A stretch of 9,195 nt of DNA from a virus (taxonomy: Duplodnaviria > Heunggongvirae > Uroviricota > Caudoviricetes). Below, one piece after another: positions 7,544 through 9,195 of the stretch (position 1 is its first letter; every line of letters starts with the position of its first letter). A program made the position numbers and the translations under genes. The stretch lies in the IMG/VR virus record IMGVR_UViG_3300010279_000202, positions 1 through 9,195 of that record, one strand, 5' to 3'. The notes under the pieces were generated by a model. The model worked only from the letters and a program-made list of their open reading frames with translations. It was not told the DNA's origin and made no database searches.

Positions 7544-8055
7544 GCCGCGTTTCCTTCTTTCTTATTAACAATTACACCGTCATATATTTCATTAAGGTGC
7601 CCTCTCAACTCCATGCGCCTTAATGCAGATAACATGTAATCGCATTCAACCTGCTTATTTCCAGTAAATGGCTTATCGTCAGGATTACCCCAACAGCAAT
7701 TACCCTTGGGCCACCCATGTACTTTCCGTACTCTTCCGTTAACAACGTGAAGTAATCCCCAGCCAGGTGGTAAATCCTCAACTGAAATAATTCCCGGCTC
7801 ACTAATAAAGAATCGCCAGTCGCCCATTCCAAGAGATGGATTTTTACGAAAACGCTTTTTTCTATCTGCCAACAAGTCAGCACGAGAACACTTCGCCTCT
7901 ATCAGGCATGATGCTGAATTTCTGAATCCCATAGCATCTGGCTGTTCTCCGGTACTGGTTACAGCTATAAAGCGGTCATGAAAACAAACCTTGAACCCGT
8001 TGCGCTTAAGGAACTTATACGCAATCTGACAGAGTTCGCGGTGTGTTAACGCCAT
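7540..8055 (-). CDS. PD-(D/E)xK-motif nuclease-like protein, 171 aa
   Basis: Track ORF 7540..8127; preferred ATG at 8055 (MALTHRELCQIAYKF...) preceded by AAGGAGAG SD. Contains ...QPDAMGFRNSASCLIEAK..., i.e. P-D, then 14 residues, then E-x-K, the classic restriction-endonuclease-like signature. The motif reading is inference. Confidence 0.7.
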   Translation of the reverse strand: MALTHRELCQIAYKFLKRNGFKVCFHDRFIAVTSTGEQPDAMGFRNSASCLIEAKCSRADLLADRKKRFRKNPSLGMGDWRFFISEPGIISVEDLPPGWGLLHVVNGRVRKVHGWPKGNCCWGNPDDKPFTGNKQVECDYMLSALRRMELRGHLNEIYDGVIVNKKEGNAA

Positions 8056-8056
8056 A

Positions 8057-8245
8057 TCACTCTCCTTTAGTGCGCAAGTGGTTTTTCCAGCGGTTTTGCG
8101 CCGCGCTGGGCTTTTTGCAAAAACCACAATCCATCATCCCGTAATATTTCATCAACCCCATCCGTCGGTTGCTGAGTCTCACCCACTGCCAGACGCCAGG
8201 AGCGTTTCTACGAACTAACAGAATCTTTGCTTTACGGTTTTTCAT
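8057..8245 (-). CDS. Small basic protein, 62 aa
   Basis: ATG at 8245 forms an ATGA overlap with the upstream micro-gene and follows an AGGAGA SD; product MKNRKAKILLVRRNAPGVWQWVRL...CGFCKK... is K/R-rich. Its stop overlaps the SD of the next gene. Confidence 0.45.
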   Translation of the reverse strand: MKNRKAKILLVRRNAPGVWQWVRLSNRRMGLMKYYGMMDCGFCKKPSAAQNRWKNHLRTKGE

Positions 8246-8418
8246 CGCTTTGCTCTCCTGCGTCTCTTTGCTGCTCGTCGTGCCGCTGCAATACCGGTAT
8301 GGCGGCGCTTTGGTGCCGGGATGATGTTGTCAGCCATCAGGACATGTGGCTTTGCAATTAGCGCAGAAGCCCAAAAACGAGTCGGGTACGGTAACAAGCC
8401 GAAAAATGCCACACGCAT
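8242..8418 (-). CDS. Small protein, 58 aa, with arginine-rich tail
   Basis: ATG at 8418 overlaps the upstream stop (TAATG) and follows GGGAGGTGAG SD; product MRVAFFGLLPYPTRFWASALIAKPHVLMADNIIPAPKRRHTGIAAARRAAKRRRRAKR. Below the track's size cutoff. Confidence 0.4.
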   Translation of the reverse strand: MRVAFFGLLPYPTRFWASALIAKPHVLMADNIIPAPKRRHTGIAAARRAAKRRRRAKR

Positions 8419-8780
8419 TACTCACCTCCCTTACCCTGAAGCATGGCAGCGCGGCAGGCGTTCCAGCCATCAACATAATCAAACGTATTGCTATCGTCTG
8501 GATCGATTTCATCCGGCACTACCGGCTCTGGTTGGATAGTGACGTTGGCAAAGGCAGCACGCAAACCGGCCTTAATTTCCTCTACTTCATCAGCGCCTAG
8601 CGATGAATCTGACAATGCGTGATGGAATGCGTAAGCCATGTCGTCGTTTACTGCAACCGGTTCGGCTTCCAGTGATGCCAGCGCAATTCGTGCCAGTTCC
8701 ATTTGTTCGCCACGGGTAAGCCCGTTATCAAGCGGATTTTTAATGAATAATTCGATACGTTCTTTGGTAATAGTGGTCAT
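8418..8780 (-). CDS. Hypothetical protein, 120 aa, paralogous to the N-terminal domain of the 318-aa DUF551-like protein
   Basis: MTTITKERIELFIK...ELARIALASLEAE...WNACRAAMLQGKGGE; start forms an ATGA overlap with the upstream stop. Shares 26-28-bp near-identical DNA patches with 6587-7543. Confidence 0.75.
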   Translation of the reverse strand: MTTITKERIELFIKNPLDNGLTRGEQMELARIALASLEAEPVAVNDDMAYAFHHALSDSSLGADEVEEIKAGLRAAFANVTIQPEPVVPDEIDPDDSNTFDYVDGWNACRAAMLQGKGGE

Positions 8781-8986
8781 TTGTTAATCCTCAAAACTTT
8801 ATGCCCGGGCGCAAAAGCACGTGTTTTGTCTTTACTTATTCGCCACCCGTCTTTACGGGCCTCTTTTGCACAACCAGACCATGACGTACCGATATACTCA
8901 CCGAAGTCTGGCACTGGATATACACCTTCCGTACACTGGCGGCAGTCACAATAGAGATGCATGGTGTAACTTGCAGCGATAGCCAT
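8777..8986 (-). CDS. Small Cys-rich (putative metal-binding) protein, 69 aa
   Basis: Track ORF 8777..9067; preferred ATG at 8986 (MAIAASYTMHLYCDCRQCTEG...SGCAKEARKDGW...) preceded by AAGGAGAG SD. Contains a C-x-C-x2-C cluster plus further Cys/His residues. Confidence 0.6.
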   Translation of the reverse strand: MAIAASYTMHLYCDCRQCTEGVYPVPDFGEYIGTSWSGCAKEARKDGWRISKDKTRAFAPGHKVLRINK

Positions 8987-8987
8987 A

Positions 8988-9195
8988 TCACTCTCCTTTG
9001 ATGCGAATGCCAGGGGCGCGTGGCACATTAACTTCCACGATGCGCACAGTTGGTTTGTACATCTCAATCGCAGTCAGCCAGTCAGCGCCAGTCATGCGCT
9101 TTTCTGCATCGCCATTAGTCCACTTAACCGGTACACCAATAGCCTTCATCGCGATTTCTATTTCCCCGGCAATGGCGCTTTTTCCGCAACCAGTA
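8988..9195 (-). CDS. Hypothetical protein with Walker-A-like motif, C-terminal 69 codons only; N-terminus beyond window
   Basis: Hand translation of the open minus frame gives ...TGCGKSAIAGEIEIAMKAIGVPVKWTNGDAEKRMTGADWLTAIEMYKPTVRIVEVNVPRAPGIRIKGE-stop (TGA 8988-8990). GCGKS resembles a P-loop. Absent from the track because the start is outside the window. Confidence 0.5.
   Translation of the reverse strand, partial: TGCGKSAIAGEIEIAMKAIGVPVKWTNGDAEKRMTGADWLTAIEMYKPTVRIVEVNVPRAPGIRIKGE

What the first reader, a model, noticed from the sequence alone, without database searches (positions are those of the whole stretch)
8051..8999. Identical 18-bp gene-junction cassette at two boundaries in the minus-strand operon
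GCCATATCACTCTCCTTT occurs at 8051-8068 and 8982-8999. On the coding strand each copy reads AAAGGAGAGTGATATGGC: the last codons of one gene (...KGE-stop), an AAGGAG SD, and the ATG plus first codon of the next. Two unrelated gene pairs therefore share the same stop-SD-start linker, which looks like a conserved boundary sequence enabling modular exchange of gene cassettes by homologous recombination.
Basis: seen in the sequence. Interest (0 to 1): 0.5.

Follow-up and report, generated by a model that had tools for sequence, protein, structure and literature searches.

The report
Shared gene-junction linker in phage accessory operon
An identical 18-base "stop, ribosome-binding site, start" junction sits between two unrelated gene pairs here and between dozens of other gene pairs in related E. 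coli phages, marking a short patch of homology where phages have repeatedly swapped neighbouring genes, which is a clear example of an already proposed mechanism rather than a new one.

Summary
GCCATATCACTCTCCTTT occurs exactly at 8051-8068 and 8982-8999. On the coding (minus) strand each copy reads AAA-GGA-GAG-TGA-T-ATG-GC: ...KGE-stop, an AAGGAG Shine-Dalgarno, then the next gene's ATG.

The flanks of the two copies do not align, so this is not a larger duplication.

The window is a P1-like phage-plasmid, 100% identical here to E. coli plasmid CP056619.1. It carries an accessory operon of the lambdoid exo-xis ("ea") type.

Across public viral contigs the linker, or a variant with at most 3 mismatches, joins 34 upstream and 22 downstream sequence clusters in 76 combinations, with 120 complete four-gamete squares. 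Gene-selected, linker-blind samples carry it in 80/80, 79/79 and 79/79 cases.

Among P1-like relatives all four combinations of two upstream and two downstream genes exist. Phage JL22 differs from the window by exactly the 931-bp linker-to-linker unit.

Conservation ends right after ATGGC. Upstream it continues into tail classes, for example the Ea22 tail ...AGIRIKGE*, giving 33-54 bp of homology.

One by-product: the unexplained "+GE" C-terminal motif of Ea22 proteins is probably this translated ribosome-binding site.

The parts
8982..8999 (-). Linker copy B: AAAGGAGAGTGATATGGC (KGE-stop, AAGGAG SD, 1-nt spacer, ATG GC)
   Evidence: Exact match; reading frame
9000..9014 (-). Class I tail (CCTGGCATTCGCATC, encoding PGIRI). 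This is the conserved 3' end of Ead/Ea22-like genes and extends the homology patch to about 33 bp
   Evidence: Column conservation from -16 to -1. The same tail occurs in 113 contexts and 12 upstream clusters, and in lambda ea22 and HK620 hkaG
8988..9195 (-). 3' part of an Ead/Ea22-like gene with a GCGKS-containing C-terminal domain; it runs off the window end
   Evidence: 99% identical to the JL22 'Ea22 protein' gene. The full-length homologue U4 hits Pfam Ead_Ea22 PF13935 at 1e-18. CP056619.1 annotates it as ead/Ea22-like
8777..8986 (-). 69-aa gene downstream of linker B (phrog_926, function unknown)
   Evidence: 79/79 assessable relatives are preceded by the linker family
8418..8780 (-). 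120-aa gene, a paralogue of the N-terminal part of the 318-aa DUF551 protein; ends ...CRAAMLQGKGGE*
   Evidence: Repeat families D1, D2, D3 and D9
8416..8450 (-). Degenerate third copy of the junction (class III tail GCTGCCATGCTTCAGGGT + AAGGGAGGTGAGTAATG; KGGE-stop with TAATG overlap)
   Evidence: 121 homology-block left ends pile up here
8242..8418 (-). 58-aa gene (phrog_13831), part of the 931-bp linker-to-linker unit
8057..8245 (-). 62-aa gene upstream of linker A (phrog_1380); ends ...AAQNRWKNHLRTKGE*
   Evidence: 79/79 relatives are followed by the linker, with 5 different downstream genes
8069..8104 (-). Class IV tail (GCGGCGCAAAACCGCTGGAAAAACCACTTGCGCACT, encoding AAQNRWKNHLRT). It is shared by five different upstream clusters and extends the homology to about 54 bp
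   Evidence: clusters U0, U10, U15, U17, U32. U32 is an Ead_Ea22 protein carrying this tail
8051..8068 (-). Linker copy A: AAAGGAGAGTGATATGGC
   Evidence: Exact match; frame
7540..8055 (-). 171-aa gene downstream of linker A (phrog_631/9263, function unknown)
   Evidence: 80/80 relatives are preceded by the linker family, with many different upstream partners
6587..7543 (-). 318-aa DUF551 protein, the next gene in the operon; its domain borders are further mosaic breakpoints
   Evidence: Pfam DUF551 at 6.8e-21

Best explanation
The 18-mer is a translational-coupling junction: the last three codons plus stop of one gene, a strong AAGGAG ribosome-binding site 6 nt before the next ATG, and an Ala second codon. 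It is shared by descent among many otherwise unrelated gene pairs in the early-left accessory (exo-xis / 'ea') operon of lambdoid phages, and in the copy of that operon carried by P1-like phage-plasmids such as this one. Because it is the only sequence these junctions have in common, it acts as a short conserved boundary sequence. Crossovers between co-resident phages, prophages and phage-plasmids fall inside it, or inside it plus a conserved C-terminal tail of the upstream gene. This re-assorts upstream and downstream genes and inserts or deletes whole linker-to-linker units. Shown here: the anatomy, the combinatorial distribution, the four-gamete patterns and the coincidence of breakpoints. 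Inferred: that the exchange is homology-driven and catalysed by phage Rad52-like annealases (Red-beta, RecT, Erf) or RecA, and that the sequence is maintained mainly by its translational role, with recombination as a consequence.
For: Anatomy. All 7 junctions of the operon have stop and start overlapping or 1 nt apart, so coupling is the rule here.

Distribution: at least 120 viral contigs; 34 x 22 flank clusters, 76 combinations; 120 four-gamete squares.

Unbiased samples: 80/80, 79/79 and 79/79.

Protein level: the downstream genes form about 16 unrelated families, including an HNH endonuclease and a ClpX-type zinc-finger protein. The upstream genes are mostly mosaic Ead_Ea22 proteins but also include a Mom/GNAT-like protein and small unrelated proteins.

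Sharp edges: information content drops to background right after ATGGC and about 16 nt upstream.

Closest relatives: window B = X+69aa, JL22 = X+171aa, window A and P1 MH422554 = Y+171aa, RCS47 = Y+69aa. JL22 equals the window minus the 931-bp unit.

Plasmid homology blocks start at query 185 or 197, inside the tail or at the linker. Block ends pile up at both linkers: 127 and 44 left ends, 27 and 72 right ends.

Crossovers inside the element: the GAG>GAC variant follows the 69-aa gene across 7 upstream clusters (12 of 14 occurrences), and all four haplotypes of GGC/GGT at -10 with GAG/GAC occur.

Variable positions are the last sense codon and the spacer base, whereas SD, TGA and ATG are nearly invariant.

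Literature: the boundary-sequence model is cited in PMC3029335 and PMC3233612. Rad52-like recombinases drive mosaicism on short or diverged homology, with a minimal efficient pairing segment of 23-27 bp for Red-beta and 31-34 bp for RecA (PMC3945230).
Against: The 18 identical bases shared between tail classes, and between the two copies in this window, are below the published minimal efficient pairing length for both Red-beta and RecA. Yet classes I, III and IV share the same downstream partners, so some exchanges must have used sub-optimal homology or another route. No recombination was observed directly. The sampled genes are 94-100% identical to the window's at protein level (97-100% in two of the three sets), so conservation of the linker relative to its flanks cannot be read as selection. 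Other junctions and domain borders in the same region are equally strong or stronger breakpoint hot spots, so this linker is one of several and not unique. Clustering used DNA similarity; many of the 'different' upstream clusters are variants of one mosaic family (Ea22), so for them the variable part lies inside a gene rather than being a separate gene.
Confidence: 0.8

Rival explanations
1. Convergence: independent gene pairs evolved the same near-optimal stop-SD-start arrangement under selection for efficient translational coupling, without common descent or recombination at the site.
For: Every strongly conserved position has a translational role: AAGGAG, TGA, ATG and a GCN second codon. 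The positions that vary are the last sense codon and the spacer. All junctions in the operon are tightly coupled.
Against: The five other junctions of the same operon achieve coupling with quite different sequences. Identity extends to positions with no known function (the A, G and T at positions 8, 9 and 13 in most copies) and into 15-36 nt tails shared by unrelated proteins. SNP haplotypes travel with one flank. An exact 931-bp linker-to-linker indel separates JL22 from the window. In species-dereplicated bacterial genomes the exact 18-mer outside enterobacterial phage contexts occurs only at roughly chance level: 51 hits in 596 Gb, against about 17 expected for uniform composition by my arithmetic.
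Confidence: 0.05
2. Illegitimate recombination plus selection: new gene combinations arise at random points, and only joints at gene borders survive. The shared sequence is carried passively as the end of a few very successful genes and plays no part in targeting the exchange (the Hendrix-type model).
For: This is the favoured general model where no boundary sequence is visible (PMC3029335 and PMC3233612). Phage D6 shows a joint made at a mere AAAG(G)AGA microhomology between the Ea22 tail and another junction. The 18 bp is below the minimal efficient pairing length.
Against: Random joints would not regenerate an identical 18-mer between 76 different flank combinations. The joints are seamless, in register, and carry internal SNP mosaics. 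Both sides of the linker vary independently, so it cannot be simply the end of one successful gene.
Confidence: 0.08
3. A dedicated cis-acting element: the conserved junction is a recognition site for a protein or RNA (translational repressor, RNase, sRNA or site-specific recombinase), or the KGE tail has a protein-level function, and this constraint keeps it identical.
For: Several early genes share the same translation-initiation region, as do targets of known phage translational repressors (from my own knowledge, for example T4 RegA). Ea22 authors flagged the conserved '+GE' C-terminus as unexplained (PMC7093339).
Against: There is no Rfam family in the window. There is no significant RNA structure in either context or in the 33-nt element (z = +1.24, -1.43, -0.16). 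No recombinase is associated with the sites. KGE is attached to unrelated proteins. Lambda keeps the tail, SD and stop although the start codon is lost and no gene follows, which looks like a relic rather than a maintained site.
Confidence: 0.05
4. Local segmental duplication within this element produced the two copies.
For: The window does contain paralogous segments: the 120-aa ORF versus the N-terminus of the 318-aa DUF551 protein (repeat families D1, D2, D3, D9). Each linker is followed by one small gene and then one of these paralogues.
Against: The flanks of the two linkers do not align. The paralogue spacing (1237-1333 bp) is out of register with the linker spacing (931 bp). Each junction exists separately in many other genomes.
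Confidence: 0.02

Closest known systems
Short conserved boundary ('linker') sequences of lambdoid phages (modular theory of Susskind & Botstein 1978; Clark, Inwood, Cloutier & Dhillon 2001, phage HK620)
   Same: A short sequence at a gene boundary in the early region is conserved among phages whose flanking genes differ, and mosaic breakpoints coincide with it. HK620 itself carries this element at the hkaG (Ea22-like) to hkaF junction.
   Different: I could not read Clark et al. 2001 (not held), so I cannot say whether this exact sequence is among those they listed. Here it is documented in a P1-like phage-plasmid, and quantified across hundreds of contigs, including evidence for crossovers inside the element.
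3' end of lambda ea22 and its Stx-phage homologues, with the '+GE' C-terminal motif (Dydecka et al. 2020, PMC7093339)
   Same: Junction B is the 3' end of an Ead/Ea22-like gene. The KGE tripeptide is the '+GE' motif, and lambda ea22 ends GCTGGCATTCGCATCAAAGGAGAGTGA.
   Different: The paper treats +GE as a protein motif of unknown significance. The present data show the same nucleotides after non-Ea22 genes, where they serve as the SD of the next gene. In lambda the downstream start codon is lost (ATC).
Relaxed homologous recombination by Rad52-like phage recombinases as the driver of temperate-phage mosaicism (De Paepe et al. 2014, PMC3945230; Martinsohn et al. 2008)
   Same: The proposed enzymology is the same: short or diverged homology between phages and prophages is recombined by Red-beta, RecT or Erf more efficiently than by RecA.
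   Different: Those experiments used homologies of hundreds of bp containing identical stretches of 11 to 298 bp. Exchange at an isolated 18-54 bp patch has not been tested.
Integron gene cassettes (attC sites)
   Same: An array of small, promoterless accessory genes separated by a recurring short sequence, with cassettes gained, lost and reordered.
   Different: There is no integrase, no imperfect-palindrome attC structure, and the repeat is a coding/SD sequence. Exchange would be by general rather than site-specific recombination. This is an analogy only.

Membership tests
Lambdoid conserved boundary/linker sequence | Short sequence located at a gene boundary | tested here: met
   It spans the stop of one ORF and the start of the next at both sites
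Lambdoid conserved boundary/linker sequence | Conserved between genomes whose flanking sequences are non-homologous on either side | tested here: met
   34 x 22 flank clusters and 76 combinations; about 16 unrelated downstream protein families; conservation ends abruptly on both sides
Lambdoid conserved boundary/linker sequence | Mosaic breakpoints between related genomes coincide with it | tested here: met
   Four-gamete set among P1-like phages and the 931-bp indel; endpoint pile-ups; plasmid matches start at query 185 or 197
Lambdoid conserved boundary/linker sequence | Recombination actually occurs at the sequence | not testable with these tools
   Only indirect evidence: SNP haplotype mosaics inside the element
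Lambdoid conserved boundary/linker sequence | Homology long enough for efficient pairing (23-27 bp for Red-beta, 31-34 bp for RecA; PMC3945230) | tested here: inconclusive
   The 18-bp core alone is too short. With tails it reaches 33 bp (class I) to 54 bp (class IV), but the two copies in this window share only the core
Translationally coupled gene junction | SD complementary to the 16S 3' end, 5-9 nt before the start, lying inside the upstream ORF, with stop and start within a few nt | tested here: met
   AAGGAG, 6-nt spacing, TGA-N-ATG
Translationally coupled gene junction | Downstream translation depends on upstream translation or on this SD | not testable with these tools
   Requires reporter fusions
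Ead/Ea22-like gene 3' end (Pfam PF13935 protein with +GE terminus) | The upstream gene is an Ead_Ea22 family member | tested here: met
   Met for junction B only. The window fragment lacks the N-terminus, but its full-length homologue hits PF13935 at 1e-18, JL22 annotates it as Ea22, and the plasmid annotation agrees. Junction A's upstream gene is not Ea22
Integron attC / site-specific cassette site | Imperfect inverted repeat forming a hairpin, and an associated integrase | tested here: not met
   No significant structure; no integrase next to the sites in the window or in relatives
Known structured RNA family | Match to an Rfam covariance model | tested here: not met
   0 matches at gathering threshold
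Simple segmental duplication | Similarity extends through both flanks | tested here: not met
   Flanks cannot be aligned

The most novel reading that the evidence does not exclude
The junction is more than a passive patch of homology. On this reading it is a maintained, dedicated cassette-exchange site (or a shared cis-regulatory site read by one phage factor) that turns the exo-xis/'ea' accessory operon into a homology-driven, integron-like array. That array would be exchanged freely between lambdoid prophages and P1-like phage-plasmids, with the conserved Ea22 tail acting as a designed 'docking' homology.
Probability: 0.08. Interest if true: 0.7.

Novelty: new member of a known kind. Interest (0 to 1): 0.38.

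Why it matters
Whether phage mosaicism comes from homologous exchange at short boundary sequences or from random illegitimate joints filtered by selection is a long-running argument, and reviews note that boundary sequences are rarely visible. This junction is an unusually clean, countable case: one core sequence, dozens of partners on each side, and crossovers detectable inside it. It also operates across two phage life-styles, integrated lambdoid prophages and P1-like plasmid prophages. In addition it gives a simple, testable explanation for the "+GE" terminus of Ea22 proteins, namely that it is the translated ribosome-binding site of the next gene. It does not reveal a new mechanism.

Tried and rejected
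- Chance: rejected (shuffles; shared flanks elsewhere).
- Larger duplication: rejected.
- Structured RNA: no Rfam hits, and folding of both 99-nt contexts and of the 33-nt element is no better than shuffles.
- Functions of the flanking genes: Pfam gives nothing for six of the seven junction genes, and PHROGs gives only 'unknown function' families.
- Host range from species-dereplicated genomes: 51 of 58 exact hits are unrelated chance occurrences in diverse phyla, and only 7 are homologous, so that scan added little.
- k-mer 'promiscuity' scan meant to show the linker is unique: it is not. DUF551 domain borders and other junctions score higher, partly because the measure cannot separate diverged homologues from unrelated flanks.
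- Literature: the exact sequence is in no held paper. Clark et al. 2001 is not held. PMC9836094 does not discuss boundaries.
- Conservation of linker versus flanks as a test of selection: abandoned, because the gene-selected samples are 94-100% identical at protein level (97-100% in two of the three sets).
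Full report
**1. Observation**

The 18-mer GCCATATCACTCTCCTTT occurs exactly twice, at 8051-8068 and 8982-8999. No further copy appears at up to 3 mismatches, and none of 200 dinucleotide-preserving shuffles gave two matches.

All genes in this part of the window lie on the minus strand. There each copy reads AAA GGA GAG TGA T ATG GC. At junction B (8982-8999), a gene that runs off the window end finishes ...PGIRIKGE-TGA (stop 8990-8988), and a 69-aa ORF starts at ATG 8986. At junction A (8051-8068), a 62-aa ORF finishes ...HLRTKGE-TGA (stop 8059-8057), and a 171-aa ORF starts at ATG 8055.

AAGGAG lies 6 nt before each ATG.

The flanks of the two copies do not align. The repeat extends only to 22/24 (family D10). 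The flanking proteins fall into separate BLASTP clusters.

The window does contain paralogous segments: the 120-aa ORF at 8418-8780 resembles the N-terminus of the 318-aa DUF551 protein at 6587-7543. Their spacing (1237-1333 bp) is out of register with the 931-bp linker spacing. The 'larger simple duplication' that would have refuted the finding is therefore excluded.

**2. What the region is**

The window belongs to a P1-like phage-plasmid. It is 98% identical over most of its length to Salmonella phage SJ46, P1 and P7. Across the two junctions it is 100% identical to E. coli plasmid CP056619.1.

The low-coordinate part holds the P1 humD, phd-doc and lxr region. The part holding the finding is a variable accessory operon. 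Its genes are annotated ead/Ea22-like, EaA, DUF551 and eaa, and the operon is shared with Stx-converting and other lambdoid phages. It corresponds to the exo-xis or 'ea' early-left region of lambdoid phages.

All seven junctions of this operon in the window have stop and start overlapping (ATGA, TAATG) or 1 nt apart. Two of them use the TGA-N-ATG cassette.

**3. Comparative test of the linker**

These 130 occurrences fell into 23 upstream and 16 downstream flank clusters in many combinations.

That set was selected on the 18-mer, so I drew three linker-blind samples by protein similarity to a flanking gene:
- 171-aa gene: 80 of 80 relatives are preceded by the linker or a variant with at most 2 mismatches.
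- 69-aa gene: 79 of 79 assessable relatives are preceded by it.
- 62-aa gene: 79 of 79 relatives are followed by it, with five different downstream genes.

In each sample the partner on the far side varies widely.

Pooling the first two of these samples with the 18-mer-selected loci, SJ46, P7 and the window gives 219 distinct 500-nt contexts, 34 upstream and 22 downstream DNA clusters, and 76 combinations. There are 120 complete 2x2 'four-gamete' squares.

Per-column information content, using one representative per cluster, falls to background immediately after ATGGC and about 16 nt upstream of the core.

**4. Tails**

The upstream conservation resolves into four classes:
- Class I: GC(T)GGCATTCGCATC, encoding AGIRI. 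113 contexts, 12 upstream clusters.
- Class II: GCCGCAGCCGGT, encoding AAAG.
- Class III: GCCATGCTTCAGGGT, encoding AMLQG.
- Class IV: GCGGCGCAAAACCGCTGGAAAAACCACTTGCGCACT, encoding AAQNRWKNHLRT.

Junction B carries class I and junction A carries class IV. Within a class the identical patch is therefore 33-54 bp. Between classes it is only the 18-bp core.

A degenerate class III copy sits at 8416-8450, at the 120-aa to 58-aa junction.

**5. What the flanking genes are**

Most upstream partners are members of one mosaic family, Ead/Ea22 (Pfam PF13935). They share a conserved N-terminus and coiled-coil, an unrelated C-terminal domain, and the common tail.

The same tail plus linker also follows a Mom/GNAT-like protein, the 62-aa family, a 73-aa protein and the 69-aa gene itself. 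One Ead_Ea22 protein (U32) carries the class IV tail of the 62-aa family.

Downstream partners form about 16 unrelated families. They include an HNH endonuclease and a ClpX-type zinc-finger protein, and most have no known function.

**6. Evidence that exchange happens in the element**

Among the closest P1-like relatives, all four combinations of two upstream genes (X = the window's Ea22-like gene, Y = the 62-aa gene) and two downstream genes exist:
- window junction B = X + 69-aa
- JL22 = X + 171-aa
- window junction A and P1 MH422554 = Y + 171-aa
- RCS47 = Y + 69-aa

JL22 is collinear with the window except that the 931-bp linker-to-linker unit is absent.

Eight plasmids match the window from query position 185, inside the tail, and one from position 197, the first base of the linker.

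In a BLAST of the window against the 240 protein-selected loci, homology-block ends pile up at both linkers: 127 and 44 left ends, and 27 and 72 right ends. They also pile up at the other gene junctions and at the DUF551 domain borders.

Inside the element, the GAG>GAC variant of the last codon accompanies the 69-aa gene in 12 of its 14 occurrences, across seven upstream clusters. All four haplotypes of the GGC/GGT site at -10 combined with GAG/GAC are present. This is as expected if crossovers fall at different points within the roughly 33-bp patch. These counts are of distinct contexts, not independent events.

**7. Mechanism**

The positions that hardly ever vary are AAGGAG, TGA, ATG and GC. 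The positions that do vary are the last sense codon and the spacer base. The sequence is therefore best read as a translational-coupling junction kept by its translational function.

Its identity at neutral positions, its tails and its haplotypes show common descent, not convergence. Being the only homology between otherwise different junctions, it is where homologous exchange can join them.

Published work shows that Rad52-like phage recombinases dominate mosaic formation on short or diverged homology. It gives minimal efficient pairing lengths of 23-27 bp for Red-beta and 31-34 bp for RecA (PMC3945230). The tailed versions exceed these lengths and the bare 18-bp core does not. That is the main weakness of the model for exchanges between tail classes, which nevertheless share the same downstream partners.

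Phage D6 shows that microhomology joints also occur: its Ea22 tail AAAGGAGA is fused to the AAAGAGA-containing end of another gene.

No Rfam family and no significant RNA structure support an RNA-element reading.

**8. Comparison with what is known**

[quoted passage not shown] Reviews contrast it with illegitimate recombination because such sequences are usually not visible (PMC3029335; PMC3233612; PMC4546147).

HK620, the phage analysed by Clark et al., carries this element (GCCGCTGGCATTCGCATC AAAGGAGAGTGAGATGGA) at the hkaG to hkaF junction. I could not read that paper.

Lambda ea22 ends GCTGGCATTCGCATC AAAGGAGAGTGAGATCGG. The tail, SD and stop are intact, but the start codon position reads ATC and about 190 bp of non-coding DNA follows. 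This looks like a vestigial copy.

Dydecka et al. 2020 noted that all Ea22 proteins end in a '+GE' tripeptide of unknown significance (PMC7093339). The present data suggest it is the in-frame reading of the next gene's Shine-Dalgarno sequence.

**9. Verdict**

It is a well-documented instance of a known kind of feature, with modest added value in three respects: quantification, cross-lifestyle exchange between lambdoid and P1-like elements, and the '+GE' explanation.

The linker is one of several boundary sequences in this operon, not a unique device.

Noticed in passing
window 8416-8450 (-): A third, degenerate copy of the junction (…AMLQGKGGE*, AAGGGAGGTGAGTAATG with TAATG overlap) lies between the 120-aa and 58-aa genes. 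121 homology-block left ends among related contigs fall here.
   Followed up: partly
window 8418-8780 vs 6587-7543 (-): The 120-aa ORF is a paralogue of the N-terminal roughly 150 aa of the 318-aa DUF551 protein (shared MTTITKER start, ELARIALASLEAE and WNACRAAMLQ motifs). The long protein looks like an Ead-N-like module fused to a DUF551 domain at the point where the short one ends.
   Followed up: partly
window 6779-6806 and 6596-6610: The start (TPDGWISCSE) and end (PEPPQEAK*, with embedded GGAGG SD and ATGA overlap) of the DUF551 domain are the most context-promiscuous 12-mers in the related loci. They are further mosaic boundaries, at domain rather than gene level.
   Followed up: partly
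L283 (phage lambda NC_001416) locus 1040-1075, ea22 3' end: Lambda keeps the Ea22 tail, SD and stop, but the downstream start reads ATC and about 190 bp of non-coding DNA follows before ea8.5. This appears to be a relic of a lost downstream cassette.
   Followed up: partly
L287 (phage D6) 2690-2725: The Ea22-like gene is joined to the 62-aa-family gene through AAAGGAGA/AAAGAGA microhomology instead of the full linker, an example of a non-canonical joint.
   Followed up: no
L291, L300, L337, L338 (genome contigs): Short contigs binned as Segatella copri, Collinsella sp. and Xanthomonas pisi carry enterobacterial phage sequence 95-100% identical to the IMG/VR contexts. These are probably mis-binned or contaminant DNA.
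   Followed up: no
window 7540-8245 (-): PHROG family phrog_9263 (230 positions) covers the 62-aa and 171-aa ORFs as one protein, so some database entries are fused across the linker, either by annotation or by a real read-through or frameshift variant.
   Followed up: no
L221 (IMG/VR) protein U32: An Ead_Ea22-family protein ends with the AAQNRWKNHLRTKGE tail of the unrelated 62-aa family, a chimera showing that the tails themselves are exchanged.
   Followed up: partly
window 1-3100: The P1 addiction and SOS module (HNH/pdcB end, pdcA, doc, phd, humD on the minus strand; the lxr-like gene and upf93.6 on the plus strand) lies next to the accessory operon. In P7 an IS903 is inserted between the two.
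   Followed up: no
L286 (P1-like MH422554) locus 421-642: A RecT-annotated gene fragment lies a few kb upstream of the accessory operon in one P1-like genome, so some phage-plasmids may bring their own annealase to this exchange.
   Followed up: no
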